Of a stretch of DNA of 64,000 bases, positions 18,224-58,682 are shown piece after piece. Every line of letters starts with the position of its first letter. Position 1 is the first letter of the stretch. The notes under the pieces were generated by a model. That model was not told where the DNA came from, did no database searches, and worked only from the letters and a program-made list of their open reading frames with translations. The position numbers were made by a program, and so were the translations under genes. The stretch comes from Fistulifera solaris (taxonomy: Eukaryota). The stretch lies in NCBI GenBank assembly GCA_030295235.1, contig AP026123.1, positions 620,001-684,000 on the forward strand, in the 5' to 3' direction.

Positions 18224-19756
18224 CTTGAGCACCTATGGGTAGAGGAAACGCAGATTTGTACATTAGAACATAACTATAGAAACAATTTTGAGATGTACAT
18301 GGAACGGGGTGCTAACTTTCATTGCTTCGTTATTCGGAGGCCTAGATGAATGCCACATAAATATTCGGAGCATCGAATCTTTAACAAACAACTTACATTT
18401 CGAATTCGAATTGGCGTCCATTCCCCAATAAATATTGAATAACATAACAGAGACGCACTCGCTTGAGCAGTCCAAGATGAAATGCTTCTTCAGTCTACGC
18501 CGACGCTCCCAATTGAAACGGCATCAGTATCCTAATCAAATTATTATTTGCGGAATATATTGGAAGCTCTCTCCAAGGCGGCCAGTGAAGTCATGAAATA
18601 GGGAACAGATTCGAATCTCCTTGCATATACGACAATGTCGTTTAATGACAACGAACGAAGGAAGCGTTTACTACCACAGCTTTTAAAGCAGTAGAGGGGT
18701 CGACAGTGATCAATCACAGACCAATTGCTGTGATCCATTGTAATGACGAAAGCGCGTATTCGATTTGAACGTGTTAAGTTCCTCAGACCTTAACTTCGTC
18801 ATCACTTAGCAACTCCAGCAATTGACAGAAAAGTCGTGTCATTCAGTGCCGCCACAGTTCCCAACAAAATGGCATCTGCATTTTGAATTTTCTGCATGAA
18901 AAGGGTTATAACTATAAGAGCAACATGCACAGGCAATGTGCTGCACTCCATGATGTATCCATTCGGGCGACGAAAAACCCATTTAAGAAAAGTTTTACCG
19001 CTCGAGATTGGTTGACTGGGAGTTTTGTCGCCATATCAGCTGCGATATGATATGGGTGTTTGCACATGTCCTTAGAAAGTGGAGCGAGTCAAACCAAAGG
19101 TAGAAACGACCAGTTCCGAGATCACGGACACCAACAACGAAACGAGGCGAAGTCGGTGATGTGTTGAATTGATAATTATAACGTCACTCCCTTTCCGCAA
19201 GTTGGGAGATGATTTTGGATGAAGCGGGTTGAAGCCTGAGTGAAAACTAGATTATACGGATGGTCAATACATATATTAAACGATTCAGTCGAATGAAAAT
19301 AGTAAGACAATCTTTCGGGCCGTCTTCTTCAGAAATAAGATCGAAACCTTCGACATGTCGACATGGCGACGGCGACGCGGAGGAAGAATCATCATCTGTC
19401 GTGCACAGCTGAAGCCGACAAGGGCCTACCTGGCGACTGCGACAAAGCCATCGCTTTAGAATCAAGTGATCACTTGAATAACACCAAGAGAAACGAAAGA
19501 GACGACAATTATGATACACAATCGGATCACCTTTTTTGCGTTTTCCTTTCAAAACAAATTCCTGTATTTTCGGTCTATACAAAGAAAGTACATATTACGC
19601 TATACTCTTTTCATTGCTTACCAGTAATACGTATAATACTAAACCCGTATCGTATTCTACCGCAGCAGCACGGGTGTAGCCGCTGTGCCGCGGTGCAGCG
19701 CGCGGTACAGTATATTTGCCGCACTTTTTTCTCTTGAAACAAGGTCTTGCAACAAA

Positions 19757-22700
19757 ATGATAAACTCTATCAAAACAAACAAAACTTTCGCGAGCTTCGT
19801 GCTCTTTACTTGCATCCTTACGTCTCCTGTCGGCCGGATTGGCTGTTTCTTCGCTCCGGCGGAGATTCAGTTTGCTCTGGAGATTGTACGTTTGCTGCGC
19901 AACAGCGCAAGTGTTCAGTCGCTTTCGGAGTCGGTGTGTGTTCTCTCCTGCGTCTGTTTGCTTGTTCTGTCGTTCTTGTCGGTTCTTCGCATCATTTTTG
20001 TGCCTGCTTGCGTTGCAGGGCTTGTGTTGATGCGTTTCTGCGCTCGGACCGTCGCAGAAATGGCTCTTCTGGCGCTGAAGAGTTTTTGCTCGACCATTTG
20101 GCTGCTGTTTGGTCGTCGTGCGGCTGTTTGCTTCGTTCTTCTTAACGCAAACGGTTGTGTGTATCGTGAAGATGTTCTCTTGCAAAAGGACACGGAGTTT
20201 TCAGTTCGTTTGGAGACTCTACGTCTCACGATGTTTCGTCCTGTAGCTCCGGTACTTGATGCTACGGGGAAACAATTTGATTTGAAGCGAAACCACCGTG
20301 TCATTTTTCAGGTGTCTTTCGTCTTCGTCCTCTTTATTATGGTGATTGCATTTGTTGCAGCTTGTGGAGATGCCAGATGGATCGGTACTTCCGCAGTTGG
20401 CTTGTATTTGTTATTTGCTGAGCTTCGTCGGTCGTCCGCAGCAACAGCAATTCATAATTATTTGCGATTGGGCGACTTCGAGACGTCCAGCTCTTTTGCT
20501 CTCGATCCCATTCGCCATGTGTGTGAATTTTCAAACAAGCGTGTCGTTTGGAACGCACATTTCCGATGCTTGTTGAAGGAAAGAGGTCTTCTTCGCGTTC
20601 GTTTCGCCCCCGATGATAATTTGCTGTCGTTTTGTTTCATCGAACGGATCGGGCAACTGAGTGCTCGTGAATACCTCACTGATCCTCGTCATTGTCGTCG
20701 TCGCATTGGGGCGATGCCTTTTGCTCCAATAAAGACGAAACCGGCTGCTGAGTCTTCTATAAGTTCCGCGTCGACAGTTCTTGCTTCGGTCAGAGTGAAA
20801 TTGTTCAAGGAGACGATCGATAAGGAAGATGTTGATGCGGACGATGCTGTGCCAATGGACTGGTCACCGACGCCTAATAAAGTGGCTGAACCGGAGGTGG
20901 ATGCGATAGCCGGGTCGATTGTTGAGATTCCGGTTCCGGTTGCTATGGAGTTAGATGCGATGACGACTTCGGATGATCCGGTTGTTATGGACGCGGTTGT
21001 AGCATTTGATCGAATGTCGGTCGTTGTTGCTCTTGGGAAGCGCAAGCGCGATTTGGAAGATGATTTTGATACTTTTTCTCCGGTGAGGAATTTGAAGCGG
21101 CGAAAGTTATGCCAGCATCCTGTCCCGGTGGTGGATTCGGTCAACATGGAATTAGATGGGGAGAAGGCGAGTTTGGATGATCCTGTTGACATGGGGGTGG
21201 ATGTGATGCCGAGTTTCGATGATGTGATTGACATGGAGGTGGATGCAATGGCGTCTTCAGATAAAGTGGCTGAACCGGAGGTGGATGCGATAGCCGGGTC
21301 GATTGTTGAGATTCCGGTTCCGGTTGCTATGGAGTTAGATGCGATGACGACTTCGGATGATCCGGTTGTTATGGACGTGGTTGAAGCATTTGATCGAATG
21401 GCGATCGTTGTTGCTCTTGGGAAGCGCAAGCGCAATAAGGAAGATGAGGATAAGGCGAGTTTGGATGATCCTGTTGACATGGGGGTGGATGTGATGCCGA
21501 GTTTCGATGAGGTGATTGACATGGAGGTGGATGCAATGGCGTCTTCAGATAAAGTGGCTGAACCGGAGGTGGATGCGATAGCGGGGTCGAGTGTTGAGAT
21601 TCCGGTTCCGGTTGCTATGGAGTTAGATGCGATGACGACTTCGGATGATCCGGTTGTTATGGACGCGGTTGTAGCATTTGATCGAATGTCGATCGTTGTT
21701 GCTCTTGGGAAGCGCAAGCGCGATTTGGAAGATGATTTTGATACTTTTTCTCCGGTGAGGAATTTGAAGCGGCGAAAGTTATGCCAGCATCCTGTCCCGG
21801 TGGTGGATTCGGTCAACATGGAATTAGATGGTGAGAAGGCGAGTTTGGATGATCCTGTTGACATGGGGGTGGATGTGATGCCGAGTTTCGATGAGGTGAT
21901 TGACATGGAGGTGGATGCAATGGCGTCTTCAGATAAAGTGGCTGAACCGGAGGTGGATGCGATAGCGGGGTCGAGTGTTGAGATTCCGGTTCCGGTTGCT
22001 ATGGAGTTAGATGCGATGACGACTTCGGATGATCCGGTTGTTATGGACGCGGTTGTAGCATTTGATCGAATGTCGATCGTTGTTGCTCTTGGGAAGCGCA
22101 AGCGCGATTTGGAAGATGATTTTGATACTTTTTCTCCGGTGAGGAATTTGAAGCGGCGAAAGTTATGCCAGCATCCTGTCCCGGTGGTGGATTCGGTCAA
22201 CATGGAATTAGATGGTGAGAAGGCGAGTTTGGATGATCCTGTTGACATGGGGGTGGATGTGATGCCGAGTTTCGATGATGTGATTGACATGGAGGTGGAT
22301 GCAATGGCGTCTTCAGATAAAGTGGCTGAACCGGAGGTGGATGCGATAGCCGGGTCGATTGTTGAGATTCCGGTTCCGGTTGCTATGGAGTTAGATGCGA
22401 TGCCGACTTCGGATGATCCGGTTGTTATGGACGTGGTTGAAGCATTTGATCGAATGGCGATCGTTGTTGCTCTTGAGAAGCGCAAGCGCGATTTGGAAGA
22501 TGCTTTTGTTAATGCCTCTCTGGTGAGGAATTTGAAGCGGCGAAAGTTATGCCAGGATCCTGTCCCGGTGGTGGATTCGGTCAACATGGAGTTAGATGAG
22601 GATAAGGCGAGTTTGGATGATCCTGTTGACATGGGGGTGGATGCGATGCTGAGTTCAGTTCATGCCATGCCGAGTTCAAAGAAAAGTTGTAGTCCTCGCC

Positions 22701-22807
22701 TCCTCCGTACCCGTCCTTACCTGGAGCGGAAGTGCAAGGTTGTTGTTTGCTTGCGCATGCGCCCGTACTTTGCTCGGCAATGCAAAAGAATGTTCGGGTT
22801 TTGGTAG
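19757..22807 (+). CDS. Orphan protein: hydrophobic N-terminal third plus acidic 128-aa tandem repeats carrying basic NLS-like motifs
   Basis: Uninterrupted ORF of >1000 codons, first ATG at 19757; repeats contain LGKRKR and LKRRKL; no intron needed. Confidence 0.55.
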   Translation: MINSIKTNKTFASFVLFTCILTSPVGRIGCFFAPAEIQFALEIVRLLRNSASVQSLSESVCVLSCVCLLVLSFLSVLRIIFVPACVAGLVLMRFCARTVAEMALLALKSFCSTIWLLFGRRAAVCFVLLNANGCVYREDVLLQKDTEFSVRLETLRLTMFRPVAPVLDATGKQFDLKRNHRVIFQVSFVFVLFIMVIAFVAACGDARWIGTSAVGLYLLFAELRRSSAATAIHNYLRLGDFETSSSFALDPIRHVCEFSNKRVVWNAHFRCLLKERGLLRVRFAPDDNLLSFCFIERIGQLSAREYLTDPRHCRRRIGAMPFAPIKTKPAAESSISSASTVLASVRVKLFKETIDKEDVDADDAVPMDWSPTPNKVAEPEVDAIAGSIVEIPVPVAMELDAMTTSDDPVVMDAVVAFDRMSVVVALGKRKRDLEDDFDTFSPVRNLKRRKLCQHPVPVVDSVNMELDGEKASLDDPVDMGVDVMPSFDDVIDMEVDAMASSDKVAEPEVDAIAGSIVEIPVPVAMELDAMTTSDDPVVMDVVEAFDRMAIVVALGKRKRNKEDEDKASLDDPVDMGVDVMPSFDEVIDMEVDAMASSDKVAEPEVDAIAGSSVEIPVPVAMELDAMTTSDDPVVMDAVVAFDRMSIVVALGKRKRDLEDDFDTFSPVRNLKRRKLCQHPVPVVDSVNMELDGEKASLDDPVDMGVDVMPSFDEVIDMEVDAMASSDKVAEPEVDAIAGSSVEIPVPVAMELDAMTTSDDPVVMDAVVAFDRMSIVVALGKRKRDLEDDFDTFSPVRNLKRRKLCQHPVPVVDSVNMELDGEKASLDDPVDMGVDVMPSFDDVIDMEVDAMASSDKVAEPEVDAIAGSIVEIPVPVAMELDAMPTSDDPVVMDVVEAFDRMAIVVALEKRKRDLEDAFVNASLVRNLKRRKLCQDPVPVVDSVNMELDEDKASLDDPVDMGVDAMLSSVHAMPSSKKSCSPRLLRTRPYLERKCKVVVCLRMRPYFARQCKRMFGFW
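20878..22655 (+). repeat. Coding tandem repeat of 384 bp (one unit 288 bp), five units
   Basis: agtggctgaaccggagg at 20881, 21265, 21553, 21937, 22321; all spacings are multiples of 3. Confidence 0.95.
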
Positions 22808-23002
22808 TGTAGAATGATTTATTGATGTTGGGCCAGAAAAGCGGAGGATGAGAGAATGTCACGAGGAGGTGCTGGATTTTCGTTCACGTTGAACTCGACG
22901 GTAGAGTAACTGGCAGGGACGGTGACAAGGTACGTTCACTCTTGAATCCAAATCTTTTCTGTGTTTTTCTTTCAAGACCCAATCAATTGGCCAGGCGTGG
23001 CA

Positions 23003-23590
23003 AGCCAACTCTCGCGTTGCGATGAAGTTAGGGCCCCATTCTCTCGTTAAGACGCCAGATGCGCCGTCTGCGAGTGTGATTTATGTGTTGAATCACTCGT
23101 AGCTCGGTGACTTGGTGCAGTGAGACTCGAAAATGGTGTTCTTTCTTCTAGCTCCGCGTGCAACAGTTGGGCTCCTTTTGATTTTGGGATCTAGGCGAGG
23201 GCGAGCCAACTCTCGCGTTGCGATGAAGTTAGGGCCCCATTCTCTCGTTAAGACTCCAGATGCGCCGTCTGCGAGTGTGATTTATGTGTTGAATCACTCG
23301 TAGCTCGGTGACTTGGTGCAGTGAGACTCAAAATGGTGTTCTTTCTTCTAGCTCCGCGTGCAACAGTTGGGCTCCTTTTGATTTTGGGATCTAGGCGAGG
23401 GCGAGCCAACTCTCGCGTTGCGATGAAGTTAGGGCCCCATTCTCTCGTTAAGACGCCAGATGCGCCGTCTGCGAGTGTGATTTATGTGTTGAATCACTCG
23501 TAGCTCGGTGACTTGGTGCAGTGAGACTCGAAAATGGTGTTCTTTCTTCTAGCTCCGCGTGCAATAGTTGAGCTCCTTTTGGTTTCGGGA
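23003..23590. repeat. Non-coding tandem repeat, 200-201 bp x ~2.9
   Basis: agccaactctcgcgttgcg at 23003, 23204, 23404. Confidence 0.95.
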
Positions 23591-24233
23591 CCGGCGTTCT
23601 ATCTATTTTGTTTAGAATAAGAAGTAGTAGACTAGATTTTTTTTTAAAAAAAATTTTTCTAGTTTGTAGTTTGCTCCATGTTTGGACCTGGTATACATAG
23701 ATCACAGCGTTGGTGACTTCTCGAGTCATCCAATTGATCGAACACAATTCACGTCGCACCCGGTAATCGCTAATTCGGGAGCACTGGCAATCGACCCTGC
23801 GCGAATTTGATTTCCGCTCAAATAATTATGCTTTCTTGTTTTCGAAAAGTTAGTCACCATTAGATCATCTTCAGAGAACCATGTCAGCACTTGTGCATTG
23901 CAGGCAGCTACCAGGTACAGAGGTTAAATAATACAGATTGCCCGTATTCAAGTTACGACCGAACGCAACCATAATACGTCCATGATCTTCTCCCATTTCG
24001 TACGGACGCGGGCACGTTTGGACTTATTCTCGATTCCCGTTCATATCTCTTTCTTTTCGTCTTTTGTTGTTTTATTTCAGCTCATACCGTGGCCAAGCTG
24101 TCTAGAGAAGGTGCAGTGACTAGATTTGCACGCCGCAACTTCCTTCTCGAGAACAAGTACCAAGCGTGCTATATCTTGCATTGTAACGAAGCTGTCATGC
24201 GACCATGGTGAACGTGAACACTTTTTTTTTCAA

Positions 24234-24686
24234 TCACAGTCTTGATTCGAGCGCCTTCTCTTCGTCGGCTATCTTTACCAATCCCCATCCACTGAATCGA
24301 TTGTACTCCACTAACCGCAAGGAATATCCCCCAAACAGACCCTCTTTAGCCGCAAGCTCACATACCTGCCGTTGGAAAGATAGGCTGATCAAGATGATCC
24401 CACGTTTCGACTTGATATGCATCACAACATCTAGTACAGGAGTCCTTTCCAACACGATCATAGCAGCTGCTACGTCAAAACAGAACGATTATGTCCTCCG
24501 AGGCAATGAAGTAGAATGTTCCCACCCTTCCTGTAAGAAATTCCTGCATTCTTCCCGATGCAAACCAAGCATATCGTAATGTTCTTCGTCGACACCCTTG
24601 ACATGAAAATGTCGAATGTTTTCACGAGCCAGTAATCCCTGAATCATCAGCTGCACTTTTTCGTCCATCATGTAATTTGTACTCAC
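24234..24686 (-). pseudogene. Probable decayed coding sequence of unknown family
   Basis: Two ORFs (24489-24686 and 24234-24461) in the same frame, separated by an in-frame TAA; globular-looking translation. Confidence 0.35.
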
Positions 24687-25454
24687 GACGTGTGTAATGT
24701 CGGCTACCCAGGTCAGTTCTCGTTCACGGGCACTTTTTGACTTTCAGGTTTGTCAACGCATCGGAGAGGTAAATAAGCCATGGTCTCTCTGGTCAGCCTC
24801 ACGTGTTACTATGTTGTTCATTCACCGCTCGAACCCATGCCTACAGGGTTTCATCCTCTTCCAAATTTAATCAAGTCTTTTTGAAGGTTCCTTTGATCGT
24901 TATACCTTGTAAAATATGTACCAGTAATGCGAGGGGTTTATTGTGTGTTGTTGTTGGTGCGCGTTTTATTTACTCCGTATTTTCTTTGCGTCTTTTCAAC
25001 TTTTCGATCGATCGTTATTACTGCACTTTGACGGATGGGTGGACAGATTTTCCAGTCCCGCCATGATTCTCAAATTCTCTGTTTTTTGCTTTCCCATCAA
25101 ATCGTTGCACTTTCTTGTTCTTTTGACGTATCGTTGTCGATGCGATGTTGCCTATTGTGTGTTGACATAGCTTGTCCATGTTGGAGAAAGCGAAGATGGC
25201 ATTGGTGCACACAATACCTGGTAACAGAGCAGAAAAAAATGGTGTGATCGAAAATCGGTCAACATCTATAAGGTTAAAGGATCGACGTTGGGAACACTTT
25301 TCGTCCCTTCGCGATCGCGAGCGATGGAAGTTTGTTATTGCCTATTGCCTCGGTTATTCGTCGGATGACGAAACATCCAGAATGACCATGAAATAAAGAT
25401 GTACGAAAGCTTCTTTTCCCTTTCTATACGAAACAATACGGAAAGAAAGTAACA

Positions 25455-26738
25455 ATGCGATGGCTGAACGAAGAAGTACCGGGAGCAACATGGACCATGT
25501 CGATTGCCAATTGCCATTCTCATTCGTTAGTCGGGAAAGTGCAAATCGACGGGAGTGATGTGCTGTTGTTGATCGATACAAAAGCGACCGATGTATTCCT
25601 GGCGGATCATGTAAGTACACTCAGCAAGTCCCTGTTGAGACGGATGACAGTGTGACTCAACCTTGCTTTACGCGACAGAGTTTATCGTCGTCACATTCGG
25701 TTCCGATCGGCTTGGACAGTCAAATCGAAGCCTTCGATCAAGTCTATCAACAATATACTGGAGATGTCCCATTACCCTGCAACGCCAATGGAATATTAGG
25801 ACTCGGACGAAGCGCAACGACCTCCACCAATGAAACCAGCGTTCTCGGTCATCTGTCTTCCCTCTTGAAACACAACATGTTTGCCATCTACGCCACCACG
25901 ACAGATGACACGAATGCCAACGATAATGTCCTGTCAACGTCTTCTAAAATTGTATGGGGCGGATATGATAATCGTCATTATCAGGATTGTTTGGAATGGA
26001 ATAGTGTGGGTCAATGGGAAGAGGAACAATTGTTCCAAGGCGGTTGGGATGTGGTGTTGCAAGGGGCGTTTTGTCGGTGGAGTCGATTTACCGGACAGCC
26101 AAGAGGCGCTCATTGATACAACGACCTACAATATCCAATGTCCTTCAACAGCGTTGGAAAGAATCATTGAGGTCAACAAATTGGTGTGTTACAAACACAG
26201 TGACGACGCAATGGTAGCGGTGGATTGCGTTTCGGGGGAATATAATGTCTTGGCACTCGCCGATTGTGGTGCCCATTTCGAAAGCTTGGGATTTTACATG
26301 GACGGACACACCTACTACATGAGCAAAGACAATTTAATGTACGAAATAACGGGCTCATCTCACGAAAAGATCTGCGCGCTCCGACTGGAACCTTCCAACA
26401 CGACCGAGAGTTGGGTGCTGGGGACCATTTTCATGACGCGCTATTATACCGTGTTTGATTTTGCTCGCAATCGCATCGGATTCGCCGTGCGCAGTGAAGG
26501 CCGCAACAAAGAACGGTGTCCCGACGACTGGTCCGAGGATATTCGTTACGATGGAAAGCCCATTCCGGTTCCGACGGCTCCACCGACTGCAGCTCCCACG
26601 TCGGCACCCACCATTCTTCTTCCACCCAGCAATGAACCAGGGCCCTCGATGGTGCCAATCATTGCTTCAGCTCTACTGATTCTGTTGTGCTTTGGCTTGT
26701 TTCGAGGGGGGAAGTCGACGGCGGCGGCGGATCCATGA
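25455..26738 (+). CDS. Pepsin-like (A1) aspartic protease homologue with atypical catalytic motifs, Pro/Thr linker and C-terminal TM
   Basis: LLIDTKATDVF, NGILGLG, ALIDTTTYNI, WVLGTIFMTRYYTVFDFARNRIGFA, PTAPPTAAPTSAPT. Intron 25611-25678; slip near 26068; start uncertain. Confidence 0.75.
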
Positions 26739-26909
26739 ATCGAACAATCAATATTCGCTGGCGTCCCGTCACGAAGATGCCGAAGCGCCTGGTCTCGAAT
26801 TGATGTGAGTAGGAGTAGGTCATAGGTAGACTAGCAATAGAATGGTTTAAAGATTTTTCTTAGAAGAAATCGTCCGGATTTTCCTTCTTGTGTTCCTCCC
26901 CCCGATTCG
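26510..26909 (+). repeat. Direct repeat, copy 1 (~400 bp)
   Basis: Aligns to about 29190-29582 from agaacggtgtcccgacg to cgattcg with scattered substitutions and small indels. Confidence 0.95.
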
Positions 26910-29060
26910 AATGCGTTTCGAATGAAGATGATAGTTAGTTCATATTTCATACTCCGGAGTATATTGGTATTTGAATGGTATATGATTATACACTGCGCTT
27001 TTTGGTTTGAGGACCACTTTCGTTTTCTTCTTTGATAGTGACTGAAATTTAGTCGCGATCGCGTAGAACCAACACTTTACCATCATAGTAAAAATGGCAG
27101 TCGACGATACGGATGCTTTTCGACGCAAATAGTTGCGTTTCGAATGAAGATGACAGTTAGTTCATATTTCATATATTGGTATTTGAATGGTATTTGATTT
27201 TACACTTCGCGCTTTTGTTTGTGAACAACTTTGGTGCTCTCGTTGCTTTGGGGGCGTTTTAAAAGTGACTGAAATTTAGTCGCGATCGCGTAGAACCAAC
27301 ACTTTACTGTTATAGTGAAAATGGCAGTCGACGATACGGATGCTTTTCGACGCAAATAGTTGCGTTTCGAATGAAGATGACATTTAGTTCATATTTCATA
27401 TATTGGTATTTGAATGGTATTTGATTATACACTTCGCGCTTTTGTTTGTGAACAACTTTGGTGCTCTCATTGCTTCGGTGGCGTTTCAAATGACTGAAAT
27501 TTAGTCGCGATCGCGTACAACCAACACTTTACTGTTATAGTGAAAATGGCAGTCGACGATACGGATGCTTTTCGACGCAAATAGTTGCGTTTCGAATGAA
27601 GATAGTATTTGAAAGGTGTTTGATTATACACTTCACGCTTTTGTTTGTGAACAACTTTGGTGTTCTCATTGCGTCGGTGGCGTTTTAAAAGTGACTGAAA
27701 TTTAGTCGCGATCGCGTAGAACCAACACTTTACCATCATAGTAAAAATGGCAGTCGACGATACGGATGCTTTTCGACGCAAATAGTTGCGTTTCGAATGA
27801 AGATGACATTTAGTTCATATTTCATATATTGGTATTTGAATGGTATTTGATTATACACTTCGCGCTTTTGTTTGTGAACAACTTTGGTGCTCTCATTGCT
27901 TAATTTGTCGCGATCGCGTAGAACCAACACTTTACCATGATAGTGAAATTTCAGTCGACGACACGGATGCTTTTCGACGCAAATAGTTGCGTTTCGAATG
28001 AAGATGATAGTTAGTTCATATTTCATACTCCGGAGTATATTGGTATCTGAATGGTATTTGATTATACACTTCACGCTTTTGTTTGTGAACAACTTTGGTG
28101 CTCTCATTGCTTTGGGGGCGTTTTAAAAGTGACTGAAATTTAGTCGCGATCGCGTAGAACCAACACTTTACCATGATAGTGAAAATGGCAGTCGACGATA
28201 CGGATGCTTTTCGACGCAAATAGTTGCGTTTCGAATGAAGATGACATTTAGTTCATATTTCATATATTGGTATTTGAATGGTATTTGATTTTACACTTCG
28301 CGCTTTTGTTTGTGAACAACTTTGGTGCTCTCATTGCTTCGGTGGTGTTTTAAAAGTGACTGAAATTTAGTCGCGATCGCGTAGAACCAACACTTTACCA
28401 TCATAGTAAAAATGGCAGTCGACGATACGGATGCTTTTCGACGCAAATAGTTGCGTTTCGAATGAAGATGACAGTTAGTTCATATTTCATATATTGGTAT
28501 CTGAATGGCATTTGATTATACACTTCACGCTTTTGCTTGTGAACAACTTTGGTGCTCTCATTGCTTCAGTGGTGTTTTAAAAGTGACTGAAATTTAGTCG
28601 CGATCGCGTAGAACCAACACTTTACTGTTATAGTGAAAATGGCAGTCGACGATACGGATGCTTTTCGAACGCAAATAGTTGCGTTTCGACTAAAAATGAT
28701 AGTTGGTTCATATTTCATGGTATTTGATTATACACTTCACGCTTTTGTTTGTGAACAACTTTGGTGCTCTCATTGCTTTGGGGGCGTTTCAAAAGTGACT
28801 GAAATTTAGTCGCGATCGCGTAGAACCAACACTTTACCATCATAGTAAAAATGGCAATCGACGATACGGATGCTTTTCGACGCAAATACTTGTAGTTGCG
28901 TTTCGAAAGAAGATAGTATTTGAAAGGTTTTTGATTTTATACAATTCGCGATTTTGTTTGTGAACAAAGATCTTTGGTGCTCTCATTGCTTCGGTGGCGT
29001 TTTAAGTGACTTTTTTTTTTTATGTCGCGATCGCGTACAACCAACACTTTACCATCATAC
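26910..29060. repeat. AT-rich satellite, consensus 227 bp, ~9.5 units
   Basis: tcgcgatcgcgta at 27053, 27280, 27505, 27706, 27908, 28144, 28371, 28598, 28810, 29025 (spacings 201-236). Confidence 0.97.
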
Positions 29061-29189
29061 TTTGTAGTAGCGGGCAGCGCTCTTCCAACAATTCTCAATT
29101 ATTATAAAATGTTATTATGCTAAAACGTTGGAGAGAGCTGCCGTTGCCACGGACTTCTAAACTTTTTTGCTTCGTAAGCCGTAAGCGAA

Positions 29190-29582
29190 AGAACGGTGTC
29201 CCGACGACTGGTCCGAGGATATTCGTTACGATGGAAAGCCCATTCCGGTTCCGACGGCTCCACCGACTGCAGCTCCCATGTCGGCACCCACCATTCTTCT
29301 TCAACCCAACAATGAGCAAGGGCCTTCGATGGTACCAATTATTGCTTCAGCTCTAGTGATTCCGTTGTGCTTTGGCTTGTTTCGAGGGGGGGAGTCGACG
29401 GCCGCGGCGGATTAATGAATCGAACAACCAATATTCATTGACGTCCCGTCACGAAGATGCCGAAGCGCCTGGACTAGAATTGATGTGAATTAGGAGAAGT
29501 AGACTAGCAATAGAATGGTTTAAAGATTTTTCTTAGAAAAAATCGTCCGGATTTTCCTTCTTGTGTTCCTCTACTCGATTCG
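29190..29582 (+). repeat. Direct repeat, copy 2
   Basis: Second copy of 26510-26909; carries a detached protease 3' end and the intact 3' end of the TMEM70-like gene. Confidence 0.95.
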
Positions 29583-30201
29583 GATCGACGAGTTGTAATT
29601 GTTTCCTCAGTGTTGCATTATGAACATACTCTGGATGTACATACAACTGCTTCCCTTTCGCAACAAAATTACACAACGGATGCAATCCTTTGTAGGGAAC
29701 TACATCCGTTTCCGGATCAAAGACAGTTTCCACACTGGTCAAGAATAGGCTACGTGAGACCGCCTTGAGCAAGCAATCGGATTCTTTCATTTCGTTCGGT
29801 AGGGCCATTGAATTGATTTCATCAGTGGCAACCCCTGCTTTCTTTTTATGATGACATTTCCGCACGGGAATCTTTTCTATCTTGTACACGTAGGGCGAAA
29901 AGACAAAATGAATGGCGGCGGTCGAGACCACGGAACCGGCGACGAATGTCATACCGAATGCCAGAATGCCCACTTCGACGTCGGGTATTCCTCGTATGGC
30001 ACAAAACGCGGGCAGACCGACACTTCCGGTGAAAGCCGATAACACCGAAACGGCCCTCAATCGTGTGACAATCCCTCCCATGGGCGATTCGTACAACACA
30101 GTGGAGGCTTCATCGGTAGCAAAGTTGCGACACGGCCATGATGTTACACGAAATGACGCTGACGGCCAAATCATCCGCGCTGGCACTAACTTGAAAGACA
30201 T
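29533..30201 (-). CDS. TMEM70/TMEM186-like mitochondrial membrane protein
   Basis: Presequence-like start MSFKLVPARMIW; YESPMGGIVTRLRAVS, two TM helices, STAAIHFVFSPYVYKI. Confidence 0.65.
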   Translation of the reverse strand: MSFKLVPARMIWPSASFRVTSWPCRNFATDEASTVLYESPMGGIVTRLRAVSVLSAFTGSVGLPAFCAIRGIPDVEVGILAFGMTFVAGSVVSTAAIHFVFSPYVYKIEKIPVRKCHHKKKAGVATDEINSMALPNEMKESDCLLKAVSRSLFLTSVETVFDPETDVVPYKGLHPLCNFVAKGKQLYVHPEYVHNATLRKQLQLVDPNRVEEHKKENPDDFF

Positions 30202-40609: not shown

Positions 40610-40974
40610 TCGAATACAGCGATCTTTGAGAACATGGGTTTCGTTCGAAATCATATTTTCTCTTGATAGTACTTTTCTATTCTTGCTTTTTTTATGATAA
40701 GTTTAGCCGGGGAGTCTCATCTGCATTTGCCTAACCTTTAGAGAGCACCTTTCCGACTAGCGTCGGCATGAATCATCCCCTTATCTCGTACGGGGAATAG
40801 TTTAATGCACTACACGTTGATTCTTCACCTCAATAGGATCGTTAAACCATCAGTATCATCTTTCGATACATGCCATAACGAAAATTATCGCCCAAAATGT
40901 GGTTCTCAAAGAAATAGCTATAGGGATTTAGTCGGAAATGTCACCCCTATCAGCAAAATTCGGCGTTTCAGGTC

Positions 40975-42224
40975 ATCCAGAGATTCTGTGCTCGTTCCAG
41001 AAATTCTGGAATCGTTGTGTTGAATCAAACAGAGATTCTGTGGTCGTTCCAGAAATTCTGGAATCGTTGTGTTGGGTCAAACAGAGATTTCGTGGTAGTT
41101 CCAGAAATTCTGGAATCGCTGTGCTGGGTCAAACAGAGATTCTGTGGTCGTTCCAGAAATTCTGGAATCGTTGTGTTGGGTCAAACAGAGATTTTGTGGT
41201 CGTTCCAGAAATTCTGAATCGCTGTGTTGGGTCAAACAGCGATTCTGTGGTCGTTCCAGAAATTCTGGAATCATTGTGTTGGGTCAAACAGAGATTCTGT
41301 GGTCGTTCCAGAAATTCTGAATCGCTGTGTTGGGTGAAACAGCGATTCTGTGGTCGTTCCAGAAATTCTGGAATCGTTGTGTTGGGTCAAACAGAGATTC
41401 TGTGGTCGTTCCAGAAATTCTGGAATCGCTGTGTTGGGTCAAACAGAGATTCTGTGGTCGTTCCAGAAATTCTGGAATCGCTGTGTTGGGTCGCACAGCG
41501 ATTTTGTGGTCGTTCCAGAAATTCTGGAATCATTGTGTTGGGTGAAACAGCGATTCTGTGGTCGTTCCAGAAATTCTGGAATCGGTGTGTTGGGTCAAAC
41601 AGAGATTTTGTGGTCGTTCCAGAAATTCTGAATCGCTGTGTTGGGTCAAACAGAGATTTTGTGGTCGTTTCAGAAATTCTGGAATCGGTGTGTTGGGTCA
41701 AACAGAGATTCTGTGGTCGTTCCAGAAATTCTGGAATCGCTGTGTTGGGTCAAACAGAGATTTTGTGGTCGTTTCAGAAATTCTGGAATCGCTGTGTTGG
41801 GTCAAACAGCGATTCTGTGGTCGCTCCAGAAATTCTGGAATCGTTGTGTTGGGTCAAACAGCGATTCTGTGGTCGCTCCAGAAATTCTGGAATCATTGTT
41901 TTGGGTGAAACAGCGATTCTGTGGTCGTTCCAGAAATTCTGGAATCGCTGTGTTGAATCCAGCAGAGATTCTGTGGTCATTCCTGAATTTCTGGAATCGC
42001 TGTGTTGGGTCAAACAGAGATTCTGTGGTCGTTCCAGAAATTCTGGAATCATTGTTTTGGGTGAAACAGCGATTCTGTGGTCGTTCCAGAAATTCTGGAA
42101 TCGCTGTGTTGAATCCAGCAGAGATTCTGTGGTCATTCCTGAATTTCTGGAATCGCTGTGTTGGGTCAAACAGAGATTCTGTGGTCGTTCCAGAAGTTCT
42201 GGAATCGCTATATTGGGTCAAACA
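40975..42224. repeat. 52-bp minisatellite, ~24 units, each with two dyads
   Basis: Unit gttccagaaattctggaatcgctgtgttgggtcaaacagagattctgtggtc; period 52 (40994, 41046...); 156-bp higher-order block at 41957/42113. Confidence 0.98.
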
Positions 42225-48163: not shown

Positions 48164-48690
48164 AACGCTTCGAATAATGCCTACGTAGATTCTGCGTAGG
48201 CCTGGTACGGAAATTTATCGACAGAGGGGGGACCCGGATAAGGTTTTACTCGACCTCATTAATTTGTGCATCTGGATTGCATCAAAGTCATCATCGCCTT
48301 CACCAAGATGATGTATCCGTACCAAGAAGCGATAAATGACAGCAACTCGAACTCGAAACGTGAAAAGGATGATGGACGCAACGCTTCGAGTAATGTCCAC
48401 GTAGCTTCTACGTAGGCCTGGTACGGGAATTTATCGACAGAGGGGGGACCCGGATTGTGTCTTACTTCGACCTCATTAATTTATTTGTGCATCTGGATTG
48501 CATCAAAGTCATCATCGCCTTCACCAAGATGATGTATCCGTACCAACAAGCGATAATTGACAGCAACTCGAACTCGAAACGTAAAAAGGATGATGGATGC
48601 AACGTTTCGAAAATTGTTTACGTAGATTCTACGTAGTCCTGGTAGGGAAATTTATCGACAGAGGGGGACCCGGATTATGTCTTAGTTCGC
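48164..48690. repeat. Tandem repeat, 216-221 bp x ~2.4, in the U2SURP/GMPS divergent intergenic region
   Basis: aacg(c/t)ttcga...tacgtag...atttatcgacagagggg at 48164, 48380, 48601. Confidence 0.92.
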
Positions 48691-50693: not shown

Positions 50694-51966
50694 TCAGCCA
50701 CCGCGTGTGTTGTTGGGAGGTGCGGACCCGTTGTCATTCGCATTTGATCTACCAACAATTGCGTCTGGCCCCGAACTAATAACTTCTTCCACGACCGTAT
50801 TGAAGGATCGACAAGTTGCAACTGGGCATTGAATGCCGAGAAAGTGCCACTGACAATTGTGTGATTTCACTTCGCAATCGTTGCACATGATAGTGACAAT
50901 ACGTTGCAAATCCGCCGGCATAGGATGTTCCGCAATGTCACGAGCCCTAGCTTCCCACGCGGCAGCCATCGATTGCTGACTGACTACTGTCTTTTTTGCA
51001 GATCGGGCACCGATAATCGAACCCCGCTAGTTTACGGAAGCAGTGAGCATGAATGGCGTGTCCGCAGGGCAAGTCCTGCGGCGATTGTCTAGAGGAAAAC
51101 ATATCTTCTCGACAAACGGGACAATTGTTTTTGTACTTGTCTTTCAAGCATTGATGTGTTTCGAAGACCGTGACGGAAATGCACATGCAGCATTGGTCAC
51201 AGTGACGAAAGGATTCCATACCGCCCACGCGGCAGAAACCACATTGATCACAATGGAAGGGCTTTTTACCCTGTATGCAAATGAGTTAGCAACTACAATT
51301 TCAACATGTGAAAAGTGAAAATGGACCTGCAGTTCTTACCAGTGACATCCATAGATTACAGATTCCACAATGATACTCTCCGAATACCGTGTGACAACTC
51401 GTGCACTGGTTCCTGCAGAAAAAGAGTGAAGAGTTGTCAGAAAATTGCGACTTCTTTTCATTCATACCAATCGGTTGTACTTACGTCGCCGCTTGTCTCA
51501 CGTTACAATTCTTGCAAACGACCTCTCGAATTAAGAAACGATTCAACGGCGGATGGCCCGGAGGACTCAATTCATCATGACATATCCGACAACCGAAGAC
51601 TCGATTACAGCAAGGGGCGACAATGTTGCAATTTCTCTCGTAATGCACACAGGCTGCACTCGCTTCTTGCGCGGGCAAGACCGGAGCCGGAGCGGGAGCC
51701 TGTATCGTGCGATTGCCCGTCATGAGTGACTGAATGCGAAATCGTTTTTCATCCGCACTCAACGAAGTATCCGCCATGACCGCTTGAATCGCACGTCTTC
51801 TCGCTACAGCGGCATCTTCTTCTGCTGGAACAGGAGGAGCCGTGACATCGTCCATATCGTTCCCGTCTTCCATTGCGTCTTCGTCGTCGGAGAGATCATC
51901 GTCGTCGTTGGCGCTGTGGTCGTCCATATCCATATCCTCGTCGCGAAAGTCGTCGTCGTTATCCAT
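50694..51966 (-). CDS. CHY/CTCHY/RING zinc-finger E3 ligase (Pirh2/RCHY1-like), paralogue A
   Basis: CVHYERNCNIVAPCC, CPVCREDMF, CGHAIH, YRCPICKK, IMCNDC; introns 51413-51484 and 51271-51339; extra A near 50995. Confidence 0.93.
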
Positions 51967-57446: not shown

Positions 57447-58682
57447 ATGGAGGACGAACGATTTGCTCATGAGGATCAAGATGAGGACGACATGCAGGTT
57501 GTCGATAGTGACGAGGAAGATTCTGACGACGACGATGAAATGGACAACATCGATGATTCCGAAAATCCACCGGGCCCCACTGAAGAAGATGCCGCCCTTG
57601 ATCGAAGGCGGGCGATCCAGCAAGTCATGGCAGATACTTCGATTAGTCCAGATGAGAAACGGTTCCGGATACAGGCTATCATGAGCGGCAATCGTACTGT
57701 AGTTGCACCTGCACCAGCCCCAATTCAGGCCGCCGTCGAGGCGAACGCAACTTGTGTTCACTACGAGAGAAATTGCAACATAATCGCCCCTTGTTGTGGT
57801 CGAATTTTCGGTTGTCGTATCTGTCATGATGAATTGAGTGCACCGGGGCACCCACCTATGAATCGATTCTTAATTCGAGAGGTCGTTTGTAAGAATTGCC
57901 ACACGAGACAACCCGCATCGTAAGTATGAAAAACTGTCGTGTCTTTGATGGACTTGTCATGCCTCAATTTTTCGCTTTATTCTGTGAAGGAACAATTGCA
58001 TTCACTGTCACAGCATTTTCGGTGAATTCCATTGTAATATTTGCAACTTGTGGATGTCAATGGTAAGTATCAAATGAATTATTACTATTGTATGCACGAG
58101 CAGTGTTCTCAATTCCCGTACGTTTAGGGCAAAAAGCCGTTTCACTGCGATCTATGCGGCTTCTGTCGAGTGGGAGGGATTGAAGCCTTCCGTCATTGCA
58201 ATCAATGTTGCATGTGTATCTCAATTAGTGTCTTTGATACACATCATTGCTTCAAAGACAAATACAAGAACAGCTGCCCCGTGTGTCGCGAAGATATGTT
58301 CTCCTCTCGGCAAGCACCTCAAGACTTGCCTTGCGGACACGCCATTCACGCTCATTGCTTCCGTAAGCTTGCTGGGTTTGATTATCGGTGCCCGATCTGC
58401 AAGAAGACGGTGGTCAGTCAGCAATCGATGGCGGCTGCCTGGGAAGCCAGGGCTCGTGACATTGCGGAGCATCCCATGCCGGCTGACTTGCACCGAATCG
58501 TTGATATCATGTGCAACGACTGCGAAGTGAAATCGCACAATTGTCAGTGGCACTTTCTTGGGATCCAGTGCCCTGGATGCTCGTCATTCAATACTGTCGT
58601 TGAGAATGTTGTGGCCTCTGGGCCTGATGCTGCACCGTCGAGGAACGAAGGAGGTGCCCCTAGTAACGCTGGAGGCGCATAG
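57447..58682 (+). CDS. CHY/CTCHY/RING zinc-finger E3 ligase, paralogue B
   Basis: Same motifs as paralogue A; introns 57920-57989 and 58063-58127 at homologous positions. Confidence 0.95.

What the first reader, a model, noticed from the sequence alone, without database searches (positions are those of the whole stretch)
26510..29582. Satellite-bearing 2.3-kb insert flanked by a ~400-bp target-site-like duplication that rescues two convergent gene ends
Seen: the layout is A - 227-bp satellite x9.5 - hairpin - A'. Segment A spans the 3' end of the pepsin-like gene (+), the short intergenic gap and the 3' end of the TMEM70-like gene (-). The left copy completes the protease and the right copy completes TMEM70-like. 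The copies have diverged (e.g. GATCCATGA vs GATTAATGA), so this is not a simple assembly overlap. Transposon TSDs are normally 2-20 bp (established), so ~400 bp implies another route. Inference: a widely staggered break with fill-in, or integration of a circular/rolling-circle DNA by recombination.
Basis: partly seen in the sequence, partly recalled or inferred. Interest (0 to 1): 0.72.

Follow-up and report, generated by a model that had tools for sequence, protein, structure and literature searches.

The report
Satellite insert with long flanking duplication
In one of the two subgenomes of a hybrid diatom, a 2.3-kb block of satellite DNA was pasted between two tail-to-tail genes and about 400 bases were copied to both sides so that both genes stayed whole; this is probably a DNA-repair footprint that shows how satellite repeats spread, and it recurs at another chromosome.

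Summary
Real. A (26508-26912) and A' (29188-29585), 91% identical, flank a 9.5-unit 227-bp array and a 128-bp tail. The homoeologous chromosome has a single A. Both versions occur in short-read contigs, and a metagenome from another study holds the A-array junction; the tail-A' junction rests on the assembly alone. A shows purifying selection (6 synonymous, 2 non-synonymous changes), A' neutral drift (3, 6): an old in-place duplication, not merged haplotypes. The satellite is a dispersed family (at least 36 arrays); only 2 of 36 have a long unique flanking duplication, other sites show gaps or an inversion. A locus on C21 has two further cases (about 380 and 237 bp; two satellite families) with the same polarity: left copy abutting the array, 110-150-bp filler on the right. 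Best reading: break repair by template switching, a 'cycle of templated insertion', not a transposon with a fixed stagger; staggered nicks with fill-in cannot be excluded. Corrections: long TSDs are known (Dualen, R9), the hairpin is not a family trait, and the quoted 'stop' differences are not stops (assembly +1 errors). An earlier scan note reported a similar 126-bp case on other DNA of this genome.

The parts
25455..26808 (+). Aspartyl protease gene (pepsin family) with C-terminal transmembrane helix and basic tail; start shown is the first in-frame Met of this exon, an upstream exon is not excluded; intron 25611-25678; assembly +1 errors at 26069 (shown) and in the G run 26706-26711 (inferred)
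   Evidence: Pfam Asp; intron joint and 26069 deletion in run contigs; homoeolog alignment; corrected frame
26508..26912 (.). A, left copy of the duplicated target segment: last ~100 codons of the protease (functional), 51-bp gap, dead last ~16 codons of TMEM70-like
26912..29059 (+). Array of ~9.5 units of a dispersed 227-bp satellite (GC about 0.38-0.39); begins abruptly at unit position 98 directly at the end of A; units 89-98% identical to each other
29060..29187 (.). 128-bp non-satellite tail (filler) between the array and A'; no long match elsewhere in the genome; not covered by contigs of the 4 runs laid
29072..29087 (+). Short terminal motif shared with the tails of arrays L042 (C11) and, more loosely, L036 (C3), and with the native flank of array L037 (C1) and its homoeolog C2: probably donor flank carried along
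   Evidence: W and L037 units are sisters, 97/88 support
29070..29147 (.). Imperfect hairpin (arms of about 22 bp, AT-rich loop); the right arm is found only in this copy; read as a fold-back copy of the terminal motif
29188..29585 (.). A', right copy: promoterless, neutrally drifting protease remnant (29188-29488), 44-bp gap, functional end of TMEM70-like
29533..30201 (-). TMEM70-like gene, its stop lying inside A'

Best explanation
A DNA-repair copy-in event (a 'cycle of templated insertion'), not an autonomous element. Inferred steps: a broken end at the end of A (inside the last codons of TMEM70-like) primed on an ectopic array of the 227-bp satellite, probably kin of the C1:849-850 kb array; synthesis copied several units and about 20 bp of donor flank; further switches, including a fold-back, made the 128-bp tail and hairpin; the end then rejoined the home chromosome about 400 bp upstream, so A was replicated twice. 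Shown: the structure, the empty homoeologous site, the age (about half the subgenome divergence), the split of constraint between the copies, recurrence with the same polarity at C21, and mixed target-site outcomes across the family. The allele persisted because the re-copied stretch holds both convergent gene ends (inference). Later unit gain or loss inside the array is likely but not shown.
For: Empty site in C4. Of 8 arrays of this family with both flanks mapped to the homoeolog, 2 have long duplications (this one; L055, about 380 bp), 5 have no overlap and 61 to about 420 bp of homoeolog unaligned (L036, L045, L043, L047, L058), and 1 lies at an inversion (L050). That mix resembles the cycles, bridges and chains of PMC7025897 (passage), not a fixed stagger. 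No excess of short TSDs at 34 arrays (mean longest match 7.1 versus 6.8 in 1,122 mismatched pairs). A second satellite family at C21 shows the same layout (237 bp), so the outcome does not depend on the family. In 3 of 3 clean cases the left copy ends within 7 bp of the array and a 110-150-bp filler lies on the other side. Left junction: a 4-bp TTCG match between target and unit, with an 8-bp repeat 3 bp later (read). Donor-flank motif plus sister relationship to L037. Fold-back inversions of about 5-34 bp at breaks are known in yeast (PMC11724301 abstract).
Against: Sequence alone cannot tell template switching from staggered nicks with fill-in. Array 3' ends cluster in unit phase (17 of 34 at positions 42-86; Rayleigh p 0.007, 0.02 after merging related ends) while 5' ends do not (p 0.89); this polarity suits an element with a defined end better than random repair. 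The fillers have no traced template, and the C21 junctions show no clear microhomology. The unaligned gaps at other sites may be intergenic divergence rather than deletions made at insertion. No single molecule spanning A-array-A' was available, and the tail was not covered in any of 4 runs.
Confidence: 0.5

Rival explanations
1. Two nicks on opposite strands about 400 bp apart were opened into long overhangs, filled in, and joined across a captured linear piece of array DNA by end joining.
For: Gives exactly A-insert-A'. Opposite-strand nicks do make tandem duplications via fill-in and NHEJ (PMC8355091 passages). The fillers and weak microhomology at C21 suit end joining.
Against: The overhang size I saw in the passages was 43 bp, not 240-400 bp. 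It does not explain why the sharp junction and the filler fall on the same sides, relative to unit orientation, in 3 of 3 cases.
Confidence: 0.2
2. Array RNA was reverse-transcribed in trans by a non-LTR retrotransposon that makes very long target-site duplications, as Dualen does; the insert is then a SINE-like or 3'-transduced copy.
For: Dualen-4b insertions are flanked by duplications with a median of 900 bp (PMC9977147 passage). Variable 5' and clustered 3' ends. Donor flank carried at the 3' end. CRE-like LINEs exist in the genome (7 copies).
Against: No poly(A) or LINE-like 3' end at either junction. Unit and tail have no significant match to the 7 LINE loci (best E 0.36). None of the 7 LINE copies shows a long unique flanking duplication. 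Only 2 of 36 arrays have one. No Rfam hit.
Confidence: 0.1
3. A circle holding A, the array and the tail integrated at A by single-crossover homologous recombination.
For: Gives A-insert-A'. Circular intermediates have been proposed for satellite spread (PMC9940879 passage).
Against: The circle itself needs the same two non-homologous junctions first, so it adds steps. Substitutions polarised with C4 follow constraint (A 6 syn/2 non-syn; A' 3/6), not a crossover mosaic.
Confidence: 0.1
4. Two separate events: a 400-bp tandem duplication, then insertion of the array between the copies.
For: Tandem duplications and array insertions each occur on their own in this genome (C21 A68-X138 repeat).
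Against: In 3 of 3 cases the array sits exactly at the duplication junction (0-7 bp from the left copy's end) with no piece of the right copy before it.
Confidence: 0.08
5. Misassembly: two haplotypes of A joined through a satellite array.
For: No listed contig spans the whole stretch, and 29062-29232 has no cover in X1, X2 or X3. The assembly has base errors nearby.
Against: A contig of an independent metagenome (X2) runs from 26762 to 26989 across the A-array junction. A-specific and A'-specific contigs both occur in X1 with no other letters. A' carries a neutral mutation pattern including Leu>Pro in the membrane helix, unlike a working allele. C4 is a third version. The same layout recurs at C21.
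Confidence: 0.05

Closest known systems
Cycles of templated insertions (PCAWG, PMC7025897; passages read)
   Same: Inserted DNA copied from elsewhere, return to the host chromosome with a re-replicated segment (cycle); sister outcomes that leave a gap (bridge) or do not return (chain) match the other arrays of this family.
   Different: Those are somatic cancer events with large templates; here the template is a satellite array, the re-replicated segment is 240-400 bp, and the allele is old and inherited in a diatom.
MSAT-11_cRei 'mobile' satellite of Chlamydomonas reinhardtii (PMC9977147 and PMC9940879; passages read)
   Same: Arrays of a satellite with no TE features appear at new, gene-rich sites; mechanism stated to be unclear.
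   Different: 1.9-kb monomer, caught de novo, gene-disrupting; the passages I saw report no long flanking duplication. Here a 227-bp unit, old insertions, and junction anatomy at base resolution.
Dualen-4b_cRei and R9 non-LTR retrotransposons with long TSDs (PMC9977147 passage)
   Same: Insert flanked by a duplication of hundreds of bases.
   Different: No RT or endonuclease coding, no poly(A), no LINE-like 3' end, and long duplications in only 2 of 36 arrays against more than half of Dualen insertions.
Tandem duplication from opposite-strand nicks (PMC8355091; passages read)
   Same: Duplication of the stretch between the break ends by fill-in.
   Different: Overhangs of tens of bases in the passages seen, and no multi-kilobase captured insert.

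Membership tests
Cycle of templated insertion | Insert is a copy of sequence present elsewhere in the genome | tested here: met
   Unit family in at least 36 arrays; nearest array L037, mean 91.5%
Cycle of templated insertion | Path returns to the host chromosome and re-replicates a host segment | tested here: met
   Single A in C4, two copies around the insert in C3
Cycle of templated insertion | Made in one event by a replicative (copying) process | not testable with these tools
   Old allele; inferred only from the array sitting at the junction in 3 of 3 cases
Cycle of templated insertion | Microhomology or templated filler at the junctions | tested here: inconclusive
   4-bp match at the left junction here; none clear at C21; fillers untraced
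Mobile satellite (MSAT-11-like) | Tandem arrays at dispersed sites that are empty in the related chromosome | tested here: met
   8 of 8 sites with both flanks mapped lack the array in the homoeolog
Mobile satellite (MSAT-11-like) | No TE hallmarks (fixed termini, fixed TSD, coding capacity) | tested here: met
   Variable ends, no short-TSD excess, no long ORF in the insert; 3' ends do cluster, which qualifies this
Mobile satellite (MSAT-11-like) | De novo insertions observed in lines | not testable with these tools
   No mutation-accumulation data
Long-TSD non-LTR retrotransposon (Dualen/R9) or its SINE | RT/endonuclease ORF, or 3' end shared with an autonomous LINE | tested here: not met
   No ORF; best E 0.36 against 7 CRE-like LINE loci
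Long-TSD non-LTR retrotransposon (Dualen/R9) or its SINE | Long TSD at most insertions | tested here: not met
   2 of 36 arrays; 0 of 7 LINE copies with a unique long duplication
Long-TSD non-LTR retrotransposon (Dualen/R9) or its SINE | Fixed 3' end with variable 5' truncation | tested here: inconclusive
   3' ends cluster (p 0.007-0.02), 5' ends uniform (p 0.89), but the 3' tails are not one sequence
Helitron / Replitron (rolling-circle) non-autonomous element | Conserved 3' hairpin and terminus across copies (feature recalled, not from a call) | tested here: not met
   Tail matches only one other locus over its first 48 bases; right hairpin arm unique; 8 of 34 tails fold at z<-2 but are unrelated sequences
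Helitron / Replitron (rolling-circle) non-autonomous element | Rep/Hel partner encoded in the genome | tested here: inconclusive
   PF14214: 0 matches, but the controls did not ring either; Replitron Rep not searched

The most novel reading that the evidence does not exclude
This diatom has a dedicated, polar route that moves satellite arrays of unrelated families: a nuclease or repair complex starts at a preferred phase of the unit, carries a little donor flank, and re-copies 120-400 bp of target. That lets arrays settle in gene-dense DNA without gene loss and, when the filler plus target is amplified (as in the C21 A68-X138 repeat), gives birth to new ~200-bp satellite units.
Probability: 0.15. 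Interest if true: 0.8.

Novelty: new variant of a known kind. Interest (0 to 1): 0.5.

Why it matters
How satellite arrays reach new chromosomal sites is stated to be unclear (PMC9977147, PMC9940879 passages). A hybrid genome gives an empty homoeologous site for each array, so the target-site change can be read directly. Here three events from two satellite families show duplications of 237-405 bp with one polarity, beside gaps and an inversion at other sites, which makes the repair, retrotransposition and circle models testable by a genome-wide census. It also shows a way for a 2.3-kb insert to land inside coding sequence and leave both neighbours intact. The architecture itself has known analogues, so the case is a clean natural example more than a new system.

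Tried and rejected
Hairpin as element terminus: no other full copy. Flanking repeats at L046, L062, L042 and L065 were not counted as target duplications, because they are other repeat families or end far from the array; L062 (185 bp, 70%) stays ambiguous. Short fixed TSD: none above null. Ten further regions for the 219/221-bp family: TRF found arrays of 300 bp or more in 8, none enclosed by a direct repeat. Homoeolog mapping failed for L039 (no match) and gave one flank only for L041 and L037; the L153 array is present in both homoeologs. Rfam: 0 hits. Helitron family search uninformative. Metagenome pattern scans for A and for the unit core: 0 matches each. No RNA holder was on record; run X3 has a spliced contig, so it looks like RNA. 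Its contig joining 26825 to 29499 could be an excised allele, but the two sides share 40 identical bases, so a graph join of two convergent 3' ends is as likely; not used as evidence. The uncovered stretch 29062-29232 proves nothing by the tool's own note. One search used the wrong frame after the G run; its codon counts are superseded. The contig tally had one C3 too many; corrected by hand to 36 arrays, 28 on odd and 1 on even contigs among C1-C26.
Full report
1. Observation. The window is C3:620,001-684,000 of a 51.7-Mb, 62-contig genome. Its contigs come in pairs 82-91% alike (C3/C4, C21/C22, C23/C24, C13/C14, C5/C6, C1/C2), so it is a two-subgenome hybrid. Earlier scan notes call it the diatom Fistulifera solaris; I did not test that. 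A (26508-26912) and A' (29188-29585) align over 405 columns at 91.4%. Between them lie about 9.5 units of a 227-bp satellite (26912-29059) and a 128-bp tail with an imperfect hairpin (29070-29147; z -2.4, 4 of 200 shuffles as good). The left gene is a pepsin-family protease. The right gene is TMEM70-like by Atlas features, with no Pfam hit of its own.

2. It is a real, old, in-place duplication. The homoeolog C4 has one A, continuous with both flanks. Four of 7 listed runs were laid, all as contigs. X1 has one contig specific to A and one specific to A', each with no other letters and one gap. X2, a metagenome of another study, has a contig from 26762 to 26989 across the A-array junction and A'-type contigs. 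Against this: no piece spans the whole stretch, and 29062-29232 is essentially uncovered in all four runs, so the tail-A' junction rests on the assembly. The assembly has an extra base at 26069 (absent in X1, X2, X3) and, by inference, one in the G run at 26706-26711; C4 shows the same apparent +1 there and I had no reads for it. Polarised with C4, changes on the A lineage are 6 synonymous and 2 non-synonymous (p 0.005-0.012 against neutral), and on the A' lineage 3 and 6 (p 0.43-0.55); 3 changes could not be polarised; the direct contrast is not significant (Fisher p 0.15). Of 99 codons, 11 differ synonymously between A and A' and 21 between A and C4, so the event is roughly half as old as the subgenome split.

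3. The satellite is a dispersed family. The unit gave 201 matches (150 listed; 40 of 46 candidates scored), which I grouped into 36 arrays, a lower bound. Among C1-C26, 28 lie on odd and 1 on an even contig (hand count); the query came from C3, which may bias this. All 35 other arrays were fetched with about 4 kb of flank. Long unique direct repeats enclosing the array were found at 2 of 36: this one and L055 on C21. Flank repeats at L046, L062, L042 and L065 were dropped as other repeat families or as too distant. Short TSDs were not above a null at 34 arrays (7.1 versus 6.8). Homoeolog mapping was tried for 11 arrays and gave both flanks for 8: 2 duplications, 5 sites with no overlap and 61 to about 420 bp unaligned, and 1 inversion. 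Array 5' ends are uniform in unit phase (p 0.89, n 34); 3' ends cluster (17 of 34 at positions 42-86; p 0.007, or 0.02 after merging related ends).

4. The layout recurs. At C21 (about 432-435 kb) the homoeolog C22 has one copy of a gene start, whereas C21 has three. A 219-bp-family array is flanked by a 237-bp duplication (69% alike), and a 227-bp-family array by one of about 380 bp (83%). In both, as in the window, the left copy ends within 7 bp of the array and a 110-150-bp non-satellite filler lies on the right. In a survey of 58 fetched sequences (616 kb; 47 arrays of 300 bp or more, chosen around arrays and so not a random sample) these three were the only clean cases. All three left junctions fall in coding sequence.

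5. The tail. Its first 48 bases match one other locus. A 13-16-base motif right after the array end is shared with L042, loosely with L036, and with the native flank of L037 and its array-free homoeolog on C2. The single matches are weak (E 0.007-0.98 among the fetched loci), but W and L037 units are also sisters in a tree of 31 arrays (97/88; most other forks are poorly supported). I read the motif as donor flank. The right hairpin arm is unique to this copy; fold-back inversions of about 5-34 bp at breaks are described in yeast (PMC11724301, abstract only). None of the fillers could be traced in the fetched DNA; the C21 fillers were not searched genome-wide.

6. Mechanism. Mixed target outcomes, independence from satellite family, untraced fillers and the lack of fixed ends point to break repair. 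The A-insert-A' form is what PMC7025897 calls a cycle of templated insertion, beside bridges that leave a gap and chains that do not return (passage). I put template switching at 0.5 and staggered nicks with fill-in and capture at 0.2 (PMC8355091 passages, 43-bp overhangs); sequence cannot separate them. Long duplications do not exclude transposition: more than half of Dualen-4b insertions carry duplications, median 900 bp, and R9 makes 126 bp (PMC9977147 passage). But of 26 RT matches in this genome, 7 are CRE-like LINEs (family name by motif, recalled), none with a long unique duplication or a match to unit or tail, so I give this route 0.1. The 3'-end clustering is the main result that the repair model does not explain. 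'Rescue' follows from geometry: a duplication whose ends lie in two convergent gene ends keeps both genes, so such alleles survive (inference).

7. Literature seen. Passages only: PMC9977147, PMC9940879, PMC8355091, PMC7368036, 10.1101/2021.11.10.468027 (12 of 24 places, none on dispersed nuclear satellites with flanking duplications), PMC7025897, PMC5120786. Abstract and outline: PMC11724301. No supplements were read; those of the Chlamydomonas papers may give MSAT-11 junctions. Searches listed no paper on long target duplications around diatom satellite arrays; one search (satellite DNA, dissemination, target site duplication, extrachromosomal circular) gave one paper, the Chlamydomonas v6 preprint. 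The library lacks most subscription papers.

8. Verdict. It works like a cycle of templated insertion delivering a mobile satellite; it is not shown to be a transposon. New variant of a known kind; interest 0.5. A dedicated polar route for moving satellites is not excluded (0.15).

Noticed in passing
L055 (G000:C21, about 436.2-436.7 kb; oriented 1025-1515): A68-X138-A68-X138-A68 repeat where homoeolog C22 has a single A68: a duplication with filler that was then amplified, a possible birth of a ~206-bp satellite unit. A68 resembles the core of the 227-bp unit by eye.
   Followed up: partly
L050 (G000:C23:850-852 kb): The array sits at an inversion breakpoint relative to C24.
   Followed up: partly
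L061 (G000:C36, about 630 kb): The reversed 3' end of a CRE-like LINE lies within or beside a 227-bp array; the LINE 3' end shares a word of about 15 bases with the satellite minus strand, with no significant BLAST hit.
   Followed up: partly
window 26508-26598 / 29188-29278: The first 91 bp of A and A' are identical (p about 0.04 at the A' lineage rate): gene conversion, polishing or chance.
   Followed up: partly
window 26069 and 26706-26711: Single-base assembly insertions make the protease look frameshifted; the first is shown by three runs.
   Followed up: yes
window 19135-25441: About 6 kb with no match in the fetched C4 homoeolog stretch, holding 288/384-bp and 200-bp tandem arrays.
   Followed up: no
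   Followed up: partly
window 40971-42224 and 48164-48689: A 52-bp array and a 221-bp array of two other dispersed families, neither flanked by a long repeat; pieces of these families often lie next to 227-bp arrays.
   Followed up: partly
window 50788-51822 and 57582-58603: Inverted pair of about 1 kb, 75% identical.
   Followed up: no
window 26825 to 29499: A contig of run X3 joins A to A' across 40 shared bases: an excised allele or a graph join of two convergent transcripts.
   Followed up: partly
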